NCBI GenBank assembly: GCA_045544855.1
Contig: JAZPZV010000020.1
Span: 21,484 to 85,483, forward strand
Source of the DNA: Eubacteriales bacterium
GTDB lineage: Bacteria > Bacillota > Clostridia > Oscillospirales > CAG-382
Direction: 5' to 3'
Length of the DNA stretch: 64,000 bases
Positions 6,580-41,466 of this stretch are shown piece by piece. Below the pieces are notes generated by a model, which was not told where the DNA came from, did not search any database, and saw only the letters and a program-made list of their open reading frames with translations. The translations under genes were made by a program, and so were the position numbers. The first letter of the stretch is position 1; every line of letters starts with the position of its first letter.

Positions 6580-7190
6580 ATCTACGCAGGGTGACCTGCC
6601 TGATCATAAACCTGAAAAGATGGCGCAGTATCCTAGTTAACCAAGTACCGTCGAACGTGTGCCTAAAAACGCACGAAACGGCAAATCGATGAAGCTCCTT
6701 GTGCTTGCTTCTTACGCCCAGTCTGGGGTGGGTGCTGGGAGAAATGGGCCGGTGGGCCGCTCGCAATGGCATGCGATACAAGGTCCCAACGGCTTTGGAG
6801 GCTTTTTTCTGTGGGCACGGAATTGACCGTTTCACCTACAGTCTAAAGATTAAACCCATTACGCGGTGCGATGTTTTCGACGCTGTGGATGGTGTAGCCC
6901 GCCTTGAGTGAGTGCAGCGGATGATCTTCCCTCTTTGGGGAATTTCTGAAATTGTAGTTGCAAAAAAGGATTAGGCGGCGCGAGGTTATTGAGGAAATCT
7001 CCTAGGCTGAAAATCACAGGCGCGAAGCGGATTGCAGTGCGGACTCTCTTAGGCAATCAAGCCCCGGATACAGTAATGTACCGGCGTCGGTTTTAATGGG
7101 GAACCGCCTTTCGGTAACGGAAGGTAACCGCATCGGGGAAAACCTGCTTGACCGTATGCCGCAAAGTTTACGCTTCGCGTCGCCATCAAT
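6580..7190 (+). ncRNA. ole: Probable OLE-class large non-coding RNA (boundaries approximate)
   Basis: About 610 nt with no credible ORF between ispA and an oapA-like gene. The order xseB-ispA-gap-oapA-dxs-tlyA-nadK-argR-recN matches the published OLE locus. Local stems are visible. Not verified with a covariance model. Confidence 0.6.
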
Positions 7191-7191
7191 G

Positions 7192-7746
7192 TCGCTTCGC
7201 TCTCACTGCGAAGCACACGGCTTCGCAGTGATTTTCGCCCTGCTTCCGCGCAGGGCGGGCCCCTCACGGGGTTCGCAACAAGTTGCGAATTTTTCTCGCT
7301 CGTTAGCCACGGCGAGAAAAACTGTTATCGGTGTCTTTTCATGCGGAATGAATCCGCATGAGCGACGCAATTATTATCGCTTCGCTCTCACTGCGAAGCG
7401 CACGGCTTCGCAGTGATTTACACGTCCCTTCCGCGGGACGTGAGCCCCTCACGGGGTTCGCAACAAGTTGCGAATTTTTCTCGCTCGTTAGCCACGGCGA
7501 GAAAAACTGTTATCGGTGTCTTTTTGCCCGAAATGAATTCGGGCAAGCGACGCAATTATTATCGCTTCGCTCTCACTGCGAAGCGCACGGCTTCGCAGTG
7601 ATTTTCGCCCTGCTTCCGCGCAGGGCGGGCCCCTTACGGGGTTCGCACTACGTGCGAATTTTTCTCGCTCGTTAACCACGGCGAGAAAAACTGTTATCGG
7701 TGTCTTTTTGCCCGAAATGAATTCGGGCAAGCGACGCAATTATTTA
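7192..7746. repeat. Three tandem 185-bp units, each built of six hairpins
   Basis: Unit starts (TCGCTTCGCTCTCACTGCGAAGC) at 7192, 7377 and 7562. Stems of hairpins B, D and F differ between units by compensated changes. Confidence 0.95.
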
Positions 7747-38156: not shown

Positions 38157-38185
38157 TTGACAAATCGTGATCGCCGTGCTATAAT
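38157..38185 (+). promoter_or_regulatory. Sigma-A-type promoter of the T-box leader
   Basis: TTGACA (38157-38162), 17-nt spacer, TATAAT (38180-38185). Confidence 0.7.
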
Positions 38186-38191
38186 CCCTAC

Positions 38192-38452
38192 AACTTCATA
38201 AAAGCTGTGACGAGGACAAGGGTGTTCGTTTATCCGGTTTTCAGAGACCTGCCGTTTGGTGCGAGGCAGGAGCCGCTACGTTCGCTTATCACCTCCGAGC
38301 CGCAATGCCGAGCCTTGAACGGCAGGGTCAGGTGTTGACGGAGTTTCCGCCGTAGAAAGGGAAAAGCGTTGGTTGACGTGTCAAATGAGTGGTTGTAAAG
38401 TACTTTTGGGTTCAAAGACTTTATCTCGTTGCAGATAAAGTCTTTCTTTTTT
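38192..38452 (+). promoter_or_regulatory. T-box riboswitch-like leader
   Basis: GCUGUGACGAGGA K-turn-like base. AGAGA bulge (38243-38247). Distal stem CCUGCC/GGCAGG with a GUUUGGUGCGA loop. Stem III TTGAC-GT-GTCAA. AUGAG-UGGUUG bulge. Antiterminator UAAAGU/ACUUUA competes with terminator 38414-38452. Confidence 0.65.
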
Positions 38453-38513
38453 CCTCTCAAAGACAACGGCAAGCACAGGAAAAAATTTTTCGGAACAGAA
38501 AGGAACAAAAGAA

Positions 38514-40817
38514 ATGGAACAGCAGACCAAACTCATCGCCCAACGATTGAAATGGGCGCGTATCAACGCCGACGTCTCCCCCGAGACCCTTGCCTCCGCC
38601 TGCGGTGTCACCGTAGAGGAATATCTGGAGCTGGAAAAAGGGGAAAAGGATTTTTACTTTAACTTTTTGTATAACTGCGCATTGACCTTGCAGATGGACC
38701 TTTCCGAGCTGGTCTCCGGTACGGACCCCAAGCTTGGCTTCTTTACCCTCACCCGCGCAGGGGGCGGTATGCCCATCCGTAAGGGAGACGGCTTCCATTA
38801 CCGTCACGTAGCGCCCTTTTTGAAGAACCGTCTTTCCGAGCCCTTCGTGGTCACCGCGGTGTACGACGCCGTCAAGGAGACCTCTCCCATCGAGCTTGCC
38901 ACCCACCCCGGGCAGGAGTTCGACATGGTTTTGGAGGGGCAGTTAAAGATCCAGCTGGACGATCACGTGTTCATCCTCAACGAGGGAGACAGCATCTTCT
39001 ACGAATCCGAGCACGCTCACGGTATGGTGGCCATGGGCGGGAGGGACTGTAAGTTCCTTGCCATCGTTCACAAGGAGGGCGAGACTCCCGAGAACCAGCC
39101 CGTTTTGCAGGAGACTCCCTTCGTGGCAAAAGAGGTGGATTCCTTTGCGGATCCCGTGGCCTATAACAAGAGATACGAAAACTGCATCTATAAGAAGTTC
39201 GTAGAGGAAGACATCGACGAAAACGGCAGGCTGAAGAGCATCCGCTTCACCCCGCCCGAAAACTTCAACTTTGCCTACGACGTGATGGACGCTTTGGCGG
39301 AGAAGAATCCCTCCAAGCGTGCCATGGTCTGGGTGGACGACGACCTTACCCAAAGAGACTTTACCTTTAAGGAACTGCAGGACGAGGTCAACCGTACCGC
39401 CAACTACTTCGCTTCCCTTGGTGTCAAGAAAGGCGACCGCGTGATGCTGGTGCTGAAGCGGCACTATCAGTTCTGGTTTGCCATCCTGGCGCTTCACAAG
39501 CTGGGTGCCGTTGCCATCCCCGCCACCAATCAGCTGGTGGAAAAGGACTTTGTTTACCGCTTTGATGCGGCAGGGGTCTCCGCCATCTGCTGTACTGCCG
39601 ACGGCAAGGTAGCCGAAGAGGCGGAAAAAGCCGCCGCCAAGTGCGAGACGGTGAAGACCCTGGTGCTGGTCAACGGCAGCCGCGAGGGCTGGCACGATTA
39701 CGACACCGAGGTACGCCGCTTCTCCAAGCGGTTCGACAGAGTGGATACCAAGCTGGAAGAGCCCATGATCCAGCTGTTTACCTCCGGTACTACGGGCTAT
39801 CCCCGTATCGCCACCCACGATCACGGCTACGCGCTCGGTCACCTCATCACCGCCCGCTGGTGGCATTGCGTGGATCCCGAGGGACTGCATTTCACCGCCT
39901 CCGACACCGGATGGGGCAAGGCGCTGTGGGGCAAGCTTTACGGCTGTTGGTTCTGCGAATGCGCCGTGTTCGTTTACAACTACGAGCGGTTTGATCCCGA
40001 GAAGATGCTCCCCCTGTTTGCAAAATGCGGGGTGACCACCTTCTGCGCACCGCCCACTATCTACCGCTTCCTGATCAAGTGCGATCTTTCCAAGTACGAT
40101 CTTTCCACCATCCGTTACGCCTGCACGGCGGGTGAAGCTCTGAACCCCGAGGTATGGAACAAGTTCCACGAGGCAACGGGCTTGAAGATCATGGAGGCGT
40201 TTGGGCAGACGGAGACCACCCTCACCATCGGCAACCTTTACGGCGAAACACCCCGTCCCGGTTCCATGGGTGTTCCCTCCCCCGCTTACGACGTGGACAT
40301 CGTTCACGAGGACGGCACTCCCTGCGCCGTGGGTGAAGTGGGCGAGATCTGTATCCATTACGAGGAGGGCAACAAGCCCTACGGTCTGTTCATGGGGTAT
40401 TACAGAGATCCCGACAAAACTGTGGCGGCTATGCACGACGGGCTGTATCACACCGGCGACACCGCTTGGAAGGATGAAGATGGCTTCTACTGGTACGTGG
40501 GCAGAACCGACGACCTGATCAAATCCTCCGGCTACCGCATCGGGCCCTTTGAGATCGAAAGCGTTCTCATGGAGCTTCCCTACGTACTGGAATGTGCGGT
40601 AACCGGTGTTCCCGATCCCGTCCGCGGACAGGTGGTGAAGGCCACCATCGTCCTCACCGGCGGCACGGAGGAAAGTGACGGCTTGGTGAAGGAGATCCAG
40701 AATTACGTGAAGACCCATACCGCTCCTTACAAATATCCCAGAGTGGTGGAATTTGTAAAGGAACTTCCCAAGACCATCTCCGGCAAGATCCGCCGCGTGG
40801 AGCTGAAAGGGAAATAA
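38514..40817 (+). CDS. Fusion protein: XRE HTH + cupin + AMP-forming acyl-CoA synthetase
   Basis: N-terminal HTH (LIAQRLKWARINADVSPETLA). Cupin (DMVLEGQLKI..GDSIFYESEHAHG). AMP-binding motifs LFTSGTTGYPR, YHTGD, GRTDDLIKSSGYRIGPFEIES and a terminal PKTISGKIRR. Confidence 0.85.
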   Translation: MEQQTKLIAQRLKWARINADVSPETLASACGVTVEEYLELEKGEKDFYFNFLYNCALTLQMDLSELVSGTDPKLGFFTLTRAGGGMPIRKGDGFHYRHVAPFLKNRLSEPFVVTAVYDAVKETSPIELATHPGQEFDMVLEGQLKIQLDDHVFILNEGDSIFYESEHAHGMVAMGGRDCKFLAIVHKEGETPENQPVLQETPFVAKEVDSFADPVAYNKRYENCIYKKFVEEDIDENGRLKSIRFTPPENFNFAYDVMDALAEKNPSKRAMVWVDDDLTQRDFTFKELQDEVNRTANYFASLGVKKGDRVMLVLKRHYQFWFAILALHKLGAVAIPATNQLVEKDFVYRFDAAGVSAICCTADGKVAEEAEKAAAKCETVKTLVLVNGSREGWHDYDTEVRRFSKRFDRVDTKLEEPMIQLFTSGTTGYPRIATHDHGYALGHLITARWWHCVDPEGLHFTASDTGWGKALWGKLYGCWFCECAVFVYNYERFDPEKMLPLFAKCGVTTFCAPPTIYRFLIKCDLSKYDLSTIRYACTAGEALNPEVWNKFHEATGLKIMEAFGQTETTLTIGNLYGETPRPGSMGVPSPAYDVDIVHEDGTPCAVGEVGEICIHYEEGNKPYGLFMGYYRDPDKTVAAMHDGLYHTGDTAWKDEDGFYWYVGRTDDLIKSSGYRIGPFEIESVLMELPYVLECAVTGVPDPVRGQVVKATIVLTGGTEESDGLVKEIQNYVKTHTAPYKYPRVVEFVKELPKTISGKIRRVELKGK

Positions 40818-40934
40818 GCAGGGTTTTCCGTCAAATCCGACAATTTTTTGACATCTGTTTCTACAAAATAACGGTTGACATCCTGCGGGAAATGTGGTAA
40901 CATATAGGAAACGATCATAAGGAGTTATTTTGCC

Positions 40935-41414
40935 ATGAAGAATAATAACGTCGCTGCCGAGGCAGTTGCGGAAGAGACCAAGGTGATCCTTCCCGAAGAG
41001 AATAAGCCCAAAAAGGTCAAGGCACCCAAGGATAAAAAAGAACTCCACAGCATTTTCTTTGCCGCTGCATGGATCATCGCCGTCGTTGCATTGCTGTTCG
41101 CTCTGCTGGGGCAGAACGCTATGAACACCAAGGACGGTTACGCTTCCCTCAGCTACCACTGGTTTGAAGAGGTCACCAACAGAAAGACCGGCGAGGTTAC
41201 CACCGAGTGGACCGAGCAGGAGTTTGTGATCCCCGTGCTGACCACCGCGTTCTACGCTTTGGTTTCTCTGGGATTGGGTCTCGTCAGCACCGGCTTGGGC
41301 GTTACCAGCAACATCCTCAAGAAGGATAAGAAGGTTCTTACCTATCTTCCCGGCGTTGTTGTTTCCGTGTTGGCAATGATGTGCTTCCTTTCCACGGTAT
41401 TCACCAACGTATAA
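40935..41414 (+). CDS. Membrane protein, unknown function
   Basis: Lys/Glu-rich N-terminus followed by four hydrophobic helices. GGAG RBS. Confidence 0.6.
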   Translation: MKNNNVAAEAVAEETKVILPEENKPKKVKAPKDKKELHSIFFAAAWIIAVVALLFALLGQNAMNTKDGYASLSYHWFEEVTNRKTGEVTTEWTEQEFVIPVLTTAFYALVSLGLGLVSTGLGVTSNILKKDKKVLTYLPGVVVSVLAMMCFLSTVFTNV

Positions 41415-41427
41415 CAGTTTCCATAAA

Positions 41428-41466
41428 CAAAAAAGCGACCTGCTTTTGGCAGGTCGCTTTTGTTTT
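41428..41466. terminator. Bidirectional terminator between convergent genes
   Basis: AAAAGCGACCTGC-tttt-GGCAGGTCGCTTTT flanked by A-run and T-run. Confidence 0.8.

What the first reader, a model, noticed from the sequence alone, without database searches (positions are those of the whole stretch)
38157..38513. T-box-like leader controlling a non-synthetase gene (HTH-cupin-acyl-CoA ligase)
A consensus promoter sits at 38157-38185 (TTGACA-17-TATAAT). It is followed by a roughly 320-nt leader that shows the T-box hallmarks in the right order:
- A K-turn-like GCUGUGACGAGGA base.
- An AGAGA bulge.
- A 6-bp distal stem, CCUGCC/GGCAGG, with loop GUUUGGUGCGA.
- A small stem III, TTGAC-GT-GTCAA.
- AUGAG-UGGUUG-UAAAGU.

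In that last element, AUGAG can pair with CUCGU (38424-38428) and UAAAGU with ACUUUA (38417-38422). That forms an antiterminator with a UGGU bulge, which implies discriminator base A. It is mutually exclusive with the strong terminator AAAGACTTTATCT/AGATAAAGTCTTT plus T-run (38414-38452).

The 3' side of the specifier loop reads CUACGUUCGCUUAU (38276-38289). CUU-A (Leu) sits nearest the closing helix; UUC-G (Phe) and UAC-G (Tyr) are alternatives.

A speculative rationale follows. Some anaerobes make Leu or Phe by activating isovalerate or phenylacetate to the CoA ester and reductively carboxylating it. An uncharged-tRNA switch on an acyl-CoA ligase would fit that route.
Basis: partly seen in the sequence, partly recalled or inferred. 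Interest (0 to 1): 0.65.

Follow-up and report, generated by a model that had tools for sequence, protein, structure and literature searches.

The report
Isoleucine T-box controlling branched-acid CoA ligase
This is a real tRNA-sensing (T-box) RNA switch that reads isoleucine, not leucine or phenylalanine, and turns on an enzyme that most likely activates the short branched acid 2-methylbutyrate so an anaerobe can rebuild isoleucine from it, which gives a genetic handle on a route known from rumen physiology.

Summary
The T-box leader is real (window 38198-38452). Rfam's T-box model matches it end to end at 46.7 bits, E 3e-9. That is below the curated cut-off of 93, which six leaders in front of orthologous genes pass. 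Ten close leaders give strong covariation: 93 % paired against 35-46 % when partners are slid, and 26 compensatory pairs.

CUU lies inside a helix.

About 100 leaders upstream of orthologues read only AUC (Ile) or GUA/GUC (Val).

The gene encodes an HTH-cupin domain fused to a ligase about 60 % identical to M. acetivorans Macs, whose preferred substrate is 2-methylbutyrate. Its best NCBIfam match is MbcS, which uses 2-methylbutyrate and isobutyrate.

Ile-type and Val-type ligases are separate clades. They differ at an acyl-pocket residue (Gly468 against Ala).

In 20-29 genomes the ligase heads an operon with a four-subunit VorB-type 2-oxoisovalerate:ferredoxin oxidoreductase and often IlvE.

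In this window the gene stands alone, and no VOR gene lies within the 64 kb.

It is a new member of a known kind, with an unreported target and a specifier loop lacking the usual S-turn.

The parts
38157..38185 (+). Sigma-70-type promoter: TTGACA (38157-62), 17-nt spacer with TG, TATAAT (38180-85)
   Evidence: 12 of 12 consensus matches. The same layout is present in relatives L081, L085 and L086.
38204..38300 (+). T-box stem I. It comprises the K-turn base (GC-UGU-GA / GA-GC), basal helix GAGG 38212-15 / CCUC 38292-95, middle helix 38220-28 / 38279-87, helix 38235-39 / 38271-75, AG bulge AGAGA 38243-47, and distal helix 38248-53 / 38265-70 with loop GUUUGGUGCGA.
   Evidence: Rfam alignment; RNAalifold; pair counts per helix 87-100 % paired, each with compensatory changes.
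38288..38291 (+). Specifier AUC (isoleucine) plus the following A, immediately 5' of the basal helix
   Evidence: Position follows the TBDB rule (PMC7778990). It is invariant in 10 of 10 close leaders. AUC occurs in about 60 orthologous leaders and GUA/GUC in 32 paralogous leaders, with no other codon.
38303..38353 (+). Stem II (38303-09 / 38331-37) and the stem IIA/B region (ACGG...CCGU, 38338-53)
   Evidence: helix 5 is 96 % paired with 5 compensatory pairs. GACGGAGUUUCCGCCGUA is nearly invariant.
38366..38379 (+).
   Evidence: helix 6 is 100 % paired in 10 sequences.
38385..38429 (+). Antiterminator. A1 is AUGAG 38385-89 / CUCGU 38425-29. The bulge UGGUU (38390-94) holds the tRNA 3'-end-binding UGGU. 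A2 is GUAAAGU 38395-401 / ACUUUAU 38418-24, with an inner extension.
   Evidence: Constrained folding gives -7.8 kcal/mol. The same form occurs in 9 of 10 relatives, with compensatory A2 changes.
38414..38452 (+). Intrinsic terminator: 13-bp stem 38414-26 / 38433-45, loop CGUUGC, U-run. It shares 38414-26 with the 3' strand of the antiterminator.
   Evidence: (-16.4 kcal/mol for the 3' domain); helix 7 (6 compensatory pairs).
38514..40817 (+). Regulated gene of 767 aa: weak XRE-type HTH (about residues 8-71), Cupin_2 (128-185), and a Macs/MbcS-like AMP-forming acyl-CoA synthetase (241-767). Pocket residue Gly468 is the Ile-type signature.
   Evidence: Pfam; PDB 3ETC at E = 2e-199; NCBIfam MbcS model as best hit at 469.6 bits; E. 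coli Acs alignment; class analysis.

Best explanation
The region 38157-38513 is a promoter followed by a transcription-attenuating T-box riboswitch specific for tRNA-Ile (specifier AUC, read by anticodon GAU).

How it works:
- When tRNA-Ile is charged, the 13-bp terminator (38414-45 plus the U-run) forms and transcription stops before the gene.
- When tRNA-Ile is uncharged, stem I binds it through the AUC specifier and the AGAGA / distal-loop platform.
- The free NCCA end of the tRNA then pairs with UGGU (38390-93).
- That pairing stabilises the antiterminator (38385-38429), and RNA polymerase reads into the gene.

The gene product is inferred to be a 2-methylbutyrate:CoA ligase carrying an N-terminal HTH-cupin module. 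2-Methylbutyryl-CoA would be reductively carboxylated by a VOR-type 2-oxoacid:ferredoxin oxidoreductase to 2-oxo-3-methylvalerate and then transaminated by IlvE to isoleucine. The switch would therefore turn on isoleucine salvage from an abundant fermentation acid when isoleucine runs short. A paralogous clade with GUA/GUC (Val) T-boxes would do the same with isobutyrate for valine.

Shown here: the RNA architecture, its covariation, specifier conservation, protein homology, the clade split and the operon context in orthologues.
Inferred: tRNA binding, enzyme substrate and direction of flux.
For: RNA:
- Full-length Rfam T-box match, E = 3e-9.
- Leaders upstream of orthologues pass the Rfam cut-off at 95-100 bits: L019, L079, L058, L018, L001 and L071.
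- An nhmmer profile finds the leader upstream of about 90 % of orthologues.
- Covariation is strong.
- The antiterminator and terminator alternative is conserved.

Specifier:
- AUC-A sits at the canonical position.
- Only Ile or Val codons occur in front of this gene family.
- tRNA-Val genes found in related genomes have discriminator A73, matching UGGU.

Protein:
- About 60 % identical to MacsMa (3ETC, E = 2e-199), whose preferred substrate is 2-methylbutyrate (PMC10455477).
- The best NCBIfam model is MbcS, an enzyme selective for 2-methylbutyrate and isobutyrate and poor on isovalerate (PMC10026030). This mirrors the Ile/Val-only specifiers.
- 28 of 29 Val-type ligases form a pure clade, and nearest-neighbour class agreement is 83 of 85.
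- Residue 468 is Gly in 56 of 56 Ile-type and Ala in 28 of 29 Val-type ligases. It aligns with acyl-pocket Val310 of E. coli Acs.

Context:
- In 20-29 loci the ligase is followed at -4 to +20 nt by a ParA-like gene. Next come a Fer4 delta subunit and the alpha subunit (VorB, 548.8 bits against a cut-off of 399). Beta, gamma and IlvE (505.8 bits against a cut-off of 307) follow.
- This includes Ile-type ligases directly (L055, L060, L077).
- Rumen literature states that 2-methylbutyrate is a precursor of Ile and isobutyrate of Val (PMC7356843).
Against: - The window's own leader is below Rfam's gathering score (46.7 against 93). It lacks the S-turn consensus (AGUA/GAA) of canonical specifier loops, and its T-box core is UGGUUGUAAAG instead of UGGUACCGCG.
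- No tRNA-Ile gene is available from this genome to check the anticodon and discriminator.
- In this window and its close relatives the gene is monocistronic, and no VOR, IlvE or ParA-like gene lies within the 64 kb (tblastn). The rest of the pathway is therefore unproven for this organism.
- The ligase scores below NCBIfam's equivalog cut-off for MbcS (469.6 against 850).
- The HTH-cupin module has no assigned role.
- No experiment of any kind was done.
Confidence: 0.75

Rival explanations
1. The Ile T-box is the same, but the ligase serves membrane lipid synthesis. It would scavenge 2-methylbutyrate to make 2-methylbutyryl-CoA primers for anteiso branched-chain fatty acids, as S. aureus MbcS does. 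It would be induced when isoleucine, the normal source of that primer, is scarce.
For: - MbcS is the best-scoring NCBIfam family, and its documented role is BCFA primer supply (PMC10026030, PMC11167679).
- In the window clade the gene is monocistronic, with no VOR or IlvE nearby.
Against: - In 20-29 orthologous loci the ligase is co-operonic with VOR and often IlvE under an amino-acid-starvation switch.
- Inducing an oxidative IlvE-to-VOR route that consumes BCAA when the BCAA is scarce would be counter-productive. The T-box logic fits the biosynthetic direction.
- The two uses are not mutually exclusive.
Confidence: 0.14
2. One reading: the specifier is CUU (Leu), UUC (Phe) or UAC (Tyr), and the ligase activates isovalerate or phenylacetate.
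For: Those triplets do occur in 38276-38289. A Phe T-box in front of a PaaK-like ligase exists in other genomes.
Against: - CUU pairs with GGG in the helix under the loop in all 10 relatives.
- UUC and UAC lie deeper in that helix and are not conserved.
- Only AUC-N abuts the basal helix, which is the canonical specifier position.
- No orthologous leader carries a Leu, Phe or Tyr codon there.
- The closest characterised enzymes do not favour isovalerate.
Confidence: 0.03
3. The protein is primarily a transcription factor. HTH-cupin would be the business end and the ligase domain a sensor or moonlighting part, so the T-box would control a regulator rather than a metabolic step.
For: - XRE-type HTH plus cupin is a common regulator architecture. 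Homologues score for HTH_3, HTH_19 and HTH_31.
- Many residues that separate Ile-type from Val-type proteins lie in residues 40-136.
Against: - All catalytic ligase motifs are invariant across 14 diverse homologues.
- The protein is about 60 % identical to an active enzyme.
- A pocket residue tracks the T-box specifier.
- The window protein's own HTH is weak (E = 0.0035).
- A dual role remains possible.
Confidence: 0.05
4. A decaying or non-functional T-box remnant: a constitutive terminator or leader with no tRNA response.
For: The Rfam score is half the gathering threshold, the S-turn is missing and the T-box core is non-canonical. One relative (L088) looks degenerate and one (L089) has lost the leader.
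Against: - Every helix is maintained by compensatory change across relatives whose ligases are 58-92 % identical.
- The specifier, AGAGA, distal loop and UGGU are invariant.
- The S-turn-less form is shared by all 90 ligase-associated leaders, including ones that pass Rfam's cut-off.
Confidence: 0.03

Closest known systems
T-box leader / riboswitch (Rfam RF00230), e.g. B. subtilis tyrS, glyQS and the ilv-leu leader
   Same: - Stem I with K-turn, specifier loop, AG bulge and distal loop.
- Stem II, IIA/B and III.
- UGGN bulge in an antiterminator that competes with an intrinsic terminator.
- Codon followed by one nucleotide directly 5' of the basal helix.
- Controls an amino-acid supply gene.
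   Different: - Scores 46.7 bits against a gathering score of 93.
- The specifier loop is minimal (5' ACAA / 3' AUCA) and lacks the AGUA/GAA S-turn.
- The T-box core is UGGUUGUAAAG rather than UGGUACCGCG.
- The A2 helix is extended.
- The target is an acyl-CoA ligase. I found no report of this in the searchable literature.
MacsMa, medium-chain acyl-CoA synthetase of Methanosarcina acetivorans (PDB 3ETC)
   Same: - About 60 % identity over residues 241-767, E = 2e-199.
- Gly replaces the Acs pocket Trp414 (window G564).
- The Macs GWGK motif is present.
- Its preferred substrate, 2-methylbutyrate (PMC10455477), matches the Ile specifier.
   Different: The window protein carries an extra 240-residue N-terminal HTH-cupin module. 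It is bacterial and T-box controlled. Its substrate has not been measured.
MbcS, S. aureus short-chain acyl-CoA synthetase (NCBIfam NF047394)
   Same: It is the best-scoring NCBIfam model (469.6 bits). MbcS accepts 2-methylbutyrate and isobutyrate but hardly isovalerate (PMC10026030), which parallels the Ile-type and Val-type clades and the absence of a Leu type.
   Different: - The score is below the equivalog cut-off (850).
- MbcS has no HTH-cupin domain.
- MbcS feeds fatty-acid primers.
- No T-box control of MbcS was found in the papers read here.
Reductive carboxylation of branched-chain volatile fatty acids to BCAA in rumen and anaerobic microbes (VOR-dependent)
   Same: Orthologous operons encode exactly ligase, VorB-type four-subunit oxidoreductase and IlvE. 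2-Methylbutyrate to Ile and isobutyrate to Val are the reported precursor relations (PMC7356843).
   Different: The pathway is known from physiology and labelling. I did not find the gene set and its T-box control described here in the literature I could search. In this window only the ligase is present.

Membership tests
T-box leader (RF00230) | Match to the Rfam covariance model at the curated gathering score | tested here: not met
   Window: 46.7 bits against a gathering score of 93, although full-length with E = 3e-9. Six orthologous leaders score 95-100 bits and pass.
T-box leader (RF00230) | Stem I with a K-turn (GA motif) at its base | tested here: met
   The K-turn reads GC-UGU-GA...GA-GC. 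G14, A15, G102 and A103 are invariant in alignment A2. The basal helix is 100 % paired, with G-C changed to A-U in 4 sequences.
T-box leader (RF00230) | Specifier codon at the 3' end of the specifier loop, followed by one nucleotide (usually a purine) | tested here: met
   AUC-A at 38288-91, invariant in 10 of 10 leaders. The position rule is from PMC7778990.
T-box leader (RF00230) | S-turn (loop E, AGUA/GAA) in the specifier loop | tested here: not met
   None of 90 ligase-associated leaders has GAA before the codon and 1 of 90 has AGUA. In the window the loop is ACAA / AUCA.
T-box leader (RF00230) | AG bulge and distal loop that form the tRNA-elbow platform | tested here: met
   AGAGA and the GGUGCGAG distal loop are invariant or nearly so in 112 leaders. 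The distal helix is 96.7 % paired with 4 compensatory pairs.
T-box leader (RF00230) | Stem II, IIA/B and stem III | tested here: met
   Helices 5 and 6 are 96 % and 100 % paired. The IIA/B segment GACGGAGUUUCCGCCGUA is conserved. The pseudoknot itself was not tested.
T-box leader (RF00230) | UGGN in a bulge of an antiterminator that excludes a downstream terminator | tested here: met
   UGGU is at 38390-93. The A1-bulge-A2 form is found in 9 of 10 leaders, and 38414-26 is shared with the terminator. The rest of the 14-nt T-box consensus is divergent.
T-box leader (RF00230) | N of UGGN complementary to the cognate tRNA discriminator | tested here: inconclusive
   No tRNA genes occur in the window and no tRNA-Ile in any locus. 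tRNA-Val(UAC) and tRNA-Val(GAC) of related genomes have A73. A73 for bacterial tRNA-Ile is textbook knowledge and was not tested.
T-box leader (RF00230) | Uncharged-tRNA-dependent antitermination | not testable with these tools
   Needs in vitro transcription or reporter assays.
Macs/MbcS-type branched short-chain acyl-CoA synthetase | AMP-binding plus AMP-binding_C domains with the Macs pocket signature (Acs Trp414 replaced by Gly; GWGK motif) | tested here: met
   Pfam; 3ETC alignment; E. coli Acs alignment giving W414 to G564 and V310 to G468; the signature is described in PMC10455477.
Macs/MbcS-type branched short-chain acyl-CoA synthetase | NCBIfam MbcS equivalog cut-off | tested here: not met
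   469.6 bits against a cut-off of 850. It is still the top model, ahead of acetate-CoA ligase at 355.5.
Macs/MbcS-type branched short-chain acyl-CoA synthetase | Preference for 2-methylbutyrate or isobutyrate | not testable with these tools
   Inferred from homology, the T-box specifier and the Gly/Ala pocket split.
BCVFA-to-BCAA reductive carboxylation pathway | Ligase together with VOR-type oxidoreductase and BCAA aminotransferase in the same genome | tested here: inconclusive
   Met in orthologous operons. There are no hits in the 64-kb window, and the rest of this genome is not available.

The most novel reading that the evidence does not exclude
The HTH-cupin-Macs family, its S-turn-less Ile and Val T-boxes and the linked ParA-like/VOR/IlvE genes together form a previously undescribed regulon. 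It would be the genetic basis of the classical branched-chain volatile fatty acid use by gut and rumen Clostridia. The paralogues would be substrate-specialised by a Gly/Ala pocket switch, and the fused HTH-cupin module would add a second, ligand-sensing layer (feedback or autoregulation) specific to each amino acid.
Probability: 0.35. Interest if true: 0.75.

Novelty: new member of a known kind. Interest (0 to 1): 0.6.

Why it matters
- T-box specifiers act as built-in functional labels. Here they assign two paralogous, generically annotated 'AMP-binding / acetyl-CoA synthetase' proteins to isoleucine and valine supply.
- Together with the conserved VOR-IlvE operons, they point to the genes for converting 2-methylbutyrate and isobutyrate into amino acids.
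- That conversion has been known for decades from rumen nutrition, where branched-chain VFA are growth factors for fibre-degrading bacteria. As far as I could find, it is poorly tied to genes and regulation.
- It yields directly testable predictions: tRNA-Ile-dependent read-through, substrate preference, a G468A specificity swap and isotope flow.
- It shows that Rfam's T-box cut-off misses a coherent subgroup lacking the S-turn.

Tried and rejected
- Unconstrained MFE folding of the leader gave z = -0.74 and did not reproduce stem I. It is uninformative for a multi-state RNA, so I replaced it with comparative analysis.
- MAFFT mis-registered the antiterminator because the bulge length varies. 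I used constrained folds per sequence instead.
- My BLAST clustering merged a different ligase family with the orthologues. That family is a TIM barrel fused to a FadD-like domain, 23 % identical, lying downstream of LeuA-like genes. I recognised and separated it.
- The first NJ-tree script timed out. I replaced it with identity-based clustering.
- Papers PMC2767475, PMC2976453 and PMC2271356 (Macs structure and kinetics; the Vitreschak T-box survey) are not held. I therefore cannot exclude that an older comparative survey lists this target.
- tblastn of VOR, IlvE, ParA-like and LeuA-like representatives against the window found nothing.
- No tRNA-Ile gene was found in 60 loci.
- I did not run structure prediction of the HTH-cupin module, because it would not change the verdict on the RNA.
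Full report
**1. Observation**

- A perfect sigma-70 promoter, TTGACA-17-TATAAT with an extended TG, lies at 38157-38185.
- The ORF 38514-40817 starts about 320 nt downstream.
- Rfam at its curated thresholds finds only an OLE RNA elsewhere in the window.
- With permissive filters, the T-box model RF00230 matches 38198-38431 from model position 1 to 219 at 46.7 bits, E = 3e-9. The gathering score is 93.
- No other family comes close; the next best E-value is 1.6.
- The unconstrained MFE of the leader is uninformative (z = -0.74), as expected for an RNA with alternative states. It does recover the 13-bp terminator, which the terminator scan also finds.

**2. Comparative evidence that the RNA is real**

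Collecting relatives:
- The downstream protein has thousands of homologues.
- I fetched 80 genomic loci at 53-59 % identity and 12 closer loci at 62-92 %.

Presence of the leader:
- nhmmer with the window leader, iterated to a profile, finds a homologous leader directly upstream of the orthologue in about 90 % of cases and only once in the window.
- Six of these leaders pass Rfam's own cut-off at 95-100 bits. The window's leader is therefore a divergent member of a bona fide T-box group.

Covariation on ten window-type leaders (alignment A2):
- RNAalifold recovers stem I (four helices), stem II, stem III and the terminator without guidance. 26 of its 59 predicted pairs are compensatory.
- For the 52 pairs of those helices, 93.1 % of cells are paired against 35-46 % with slid partners.
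- 26 pairs change on both sides against 5-15 when slid, and 0 of 500 shuffles reach the observed values.

The antiterminator and terminator:
- MAFFT mis-registers the antiterminator, so I folded each 3' domain with UGGN held unpaired.
- In 9 of 10 leaders the same form appears: A1 (GAG/CUC, up to 5 bp), a bulge starting UGGU, and A2 (6-7 bp).
- A2 shows compensatory changes: UAAAGU/ACUUUA, UAAAGC/GCUUUA, UGAGGU/ACUUCA and UGAAG/CUUCA.
- In the window, the 3' strand of the antiterminator (38418-29) overlaps the 5' strand of the terminator (38414-26).
- Folding energies are -7.8 kcal/mol for the antiterminator form and -16.4 kcal/mol for the terminator form. This is the usual T-box arrangement, in which tRNA binding must tip the balance.

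**3.

- The proposed stem III, TTGAC-GT-GTCAA, would have a 2-nt loop. The conserved stem III is GCGUU 38366-70 / GACGU 38375-79.
- Most important is the specifier.
  - In the Rfam alignment and the RNAalifold consensus, the basal helix is GAGG 38212-15 / CCUC 38292-95.
  - The helix above it runs up to U38287, and the 3' side of the loop is only A38288-U-C-A38291.
  - By the standard rule, the specifier occupies positions 2-4 from the 3' end of the loop (TBDB, PMC7778990). That makes it AUC (Ile), followed by A.
UUC and UAC lie deeper in that helix and vary.

**4. The specifier across the family**

- In the 112-leader alignment, every leader that precedes an orthologue of this gene has one of two codon types at that position. 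About 60 have AUC, followed by A, C or once G. The other 32 have GUA (28) or GUC (4).
- The nucleotides before the codon vary (CCC, UUU, CCU, CUU and others), so only the codon itself is under constraint.
- Where two copies of the gene lie in tandem (about 20 loci), the first has an Ile leader and the second a Val leader.
- tRNA-Val(UAC), the exact complement of GUA, and tRNA-Val(GAC) found in related loci both have discriminator A73, matching UGGU.
- No tRNA-Ile gene was captured.

**5. The gene**

Domains and nearest relatives:
- Pfam finds Cupin_2 (residues 128-185), AMP-binding (262-630) and AMP-binding_C (680-758), plus a weak XRE-type HTH at residues 8-71. Homologues score for HTH_3, HTH_19 and HTH_31.
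- The closest solved structure is 3ETC (E = 2e-199, about 60 % identity over residues 241-767).
- 3ETC is the M. acetivorans Macs, whose preferred substrate is 2-methylbutyrate (PMC10455477).
- The best NCBIfam model is MbcS at 469.6 bits, below its cut-off of 850. The next model is acetate-CoA ligase at 355.5.
- MbcS selectively activates 2-methylbutyrate and isobutyrate and barely isovalerate (PMC10026030). That specificity pair matches the Ile/Val-only specifier pattern.

Ile-type and Val-type proteins:
- Among 85 full-length orthologues, the nearest neighbour has the same specifier class in 83 cases, and 28 of 29 Val-type proteins form a pure clade.
- The most discriminating column is window residue 468, in D/E-T-G-W-x-K. 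It is Gly in 56 of 56 Ile-type proteins (including the window) and Ala in 28 of 29 Val-type proteins.
- Aligned to E. coli Acs, residue 468 corresponds to Val310 and window G564 to Trp414.
- Trp414 (Trp416 in M. thermautotrophicus numbering) is the Acs pocket residue replaced by Gly in Macs (PMC10455477). Ile312 in M. thermautotrophicus numbering is one of the four acetate-pocket residues (PMC3477478).
- Equating Ile312 (M. thermautotrophicus) with Val310 (E. coli and S. enterica) uses the two-residue numbering offset and my recollection of Ingram-Smith et al. 2006.
- A bulkier residue in the clade linked to the smaller acid (isobutyrate, C4) and Gly in the clade linked to the larger one (2-methylbutyrate, C5) is what substrate specialisation predicts. 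This is an inference.

**6. Context**

In the window and its close relatives:
- The gene is monocistronic, flanked by CotH, a metallo-beta-lactamase-fold protein, MgtC and a Na+/H+ exchanger.

In the gut and rumen relatives:
- Clustering of neighbouring ORFs shows that the ligase is followed on the same strand by a set of recurring genes.
- The first is a ParA/CbiA-like P-loop protein (29 loci).
- Next comes a small 2x[4Fe-4S] protein.
- Then come POR_N+PFOR_II (22 loci), TPP_enzyme_C (14 loci) and POR gamma (15 loci).
- Last is a class-IV aminotransferase (9 loci).

Spacing and naming:
- Gaps are operon-like. Ligase to ParA-like is -4 to +20 nt in 19 of 26 cases, alpha/beta/gamma overlap, and gamma to the aminotransferase is 3-27 nt.
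- NCBIfam names the alpha subunit VorB, 3-methyl-2-oxobutanoate dehydrogenase (548.8 bits, cut-off 399). It names the aminotransferase branched-chain amino acid aminotransferase (505.8 bits, cut-off 307).
- Both Val-type ligases (for example L054, L070) and Ile-type ligases (L055, L060, L077) head such operons.

What this supports, and its limits:
- This gene set is what the route from acid to acyl-CoA to 2-oxoacid (by reductive carboxylation) to amino acid needs. The ParA-like gene is the one member with no assigned role.
- Rumen literature reports this route for 2-methylbutyrate to Ile and isobutyrate to Val (PMC7356843).
- The window itself contains none of these partner genes, so for this organism the pathway beyond the ligase is inferred.

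**7. Mechanism and rivals**

- Best explanation (confidence 0.75): an Ile-specific transcriptional T-box induces a 2-methylbutyrate:CoA ligase when tRNA-Ile is uncharged, to feed isoleucine synthesis by reductive carboxylation.
- Main rival (0.14): the ligase supplies anteiso fatty-acid primers, as MbcS does. The T-box logic, together with the VOR-IlvE operons, argues for the biosynthetic direction, because a starvation switch should not induce a BCAA-consuming route. The two uses could coexist.
- A mainly regulatory role for the HTH-cupin protein (0.05) is unlikely.
- A decayed, non-functional switch (0.03) is also unlikely.

**8. How it compares with known T-boxes**

- It works like a classical transcriptional T-box and meets most defining features: K-turn, specifier plus one nucleotide, AG bulge and distal loop, stems II and III, and UGGN in an antiterminator that excludes a terminator.
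- It fails two tests.
  - It does not reach the Rfam gathering score.
  - It lacks the S-turn consensus. None of 90 ligase-associated leaders has GAA before the codon and only 1 of 90 has AGUA. Neighbouring LeuA-like and PaaK-like leaders in the same loci are canonical.
- The window clade also replaces UGGUACCGCG with UGGUUGUAAAG and extends helix A2.

**9. Novelty**

- Six full-text searches found no paper connecting a T-box with this ligase family, and none describing the ligase-VOR-IlvE operon.
- Databases call the protein 'AMP-binding protein', 'cupin domain-containing protein' or 'acetyl-CoA synthetase'.
- Key older papers, including the Vitreschak 2008 survey, are not held, so prior mention cannot be excluded.
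- I rate it a new member of a known kind: a T-box with an unreported target and an atypical specifier loop. The regulon-level reading is the more novel possibility.

Noticed in passing
window 6604-7202 (+): Full-length OLE (ornate large extremophilic) RNA, Rfam RF01071 at 361.7 bits, E = 1e-102. It fits a Clostridia-type anaerobe as the source organism.
   Followed up: no
window 40935-41414 (+), promoter-like site 40875-40903, terminator 41431-41461: A small unannotated protein with three hydrophobic segments lies directly after the ligase. It keeps the same position in L081, L084, L085 and L087 at 30-65 % identity and has no Pfam match. Whether it belongs functionally with the ligase (for example acid uptake) is unknown.
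   Followed up: partly
L018 11572-13675; L016 12595-14216: A canonical T-box (Rfam 101.8 bits) with an S-turn and specifier GAA-UUC-C (Phe) precedes a PaaK-like phenylacetate-CoA-ligase-family gene and an ACT-pair protein.
   Followed up: partly
L011 578-5567, L077 548-5630, L018 1423-5597 and about 10 other loci: T-boxes with CUC (Leu), AUC (Ile) or apparently GUC specifiers control an operon. It holds a short LeuA-like synthase (best NCBIfam model 2-isopropylmalate synthase, below cut-off), a fusion of a xylose-isomerase-like TIM barrel with a FadD-like ligase, and an Amidohydro_2 protein. Its function is unknown. It often sits next to the Ile/Val ligase genes.
   Followed up: partly
window protein residues 40-136 (window 38631-38921): Besides pocket residue 468, most residues that separate Ile-type from Val-type ligases lie in the HTH-cupin module (positions 54, 106, 66, 67, 50, 111, 91, 94, 40). 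This suggests the cupin binds a ligand specific to each class.
   Followed up: no
all 90 ligase-associated leaders (for example window 38216-38219 / 38288-38291): The specifier loop of this T-box subgroup lacks the AGUA/GAA S-turn, and the helix runs right up to the codon. In 20 Ile-type leaders the nucleotide after the codon is C rather than a purine.
   Followed up: partly
L089 5934-6001; L088 5726-5950; L005, L012, L013, L028, L032, L033, L050: Exceptions to the rule. L089 has only 66 nt between a cohesin gene and the ligase, with no leader. L088's leader has CGGU and no A2 helix. A Ruminococcus-like subgroup and two Lentisphaerae/Victivallaceae MAGs carry the ligase without any detectable T-box.
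   Followed up: partly
L064 3026-8250: The tandem Ile-type and Val-type ligase genes are 84 % identical to each other, unlike all other pairs. This points to a recent duplication or gene conversion. They are the only nearest-neighbour class mismatch.
   Followed up: no
L019 6527-7186, L054 8286-8948 and 27 other loci: A ParA/CbiA-like P-loop NTPase of about 220 aa is always wedged between the ligase and the VOR genes, with no NCBIfam match. It may be an Fe-S maturation or assembly factor for the oxidoreductase.
   Followed up: no
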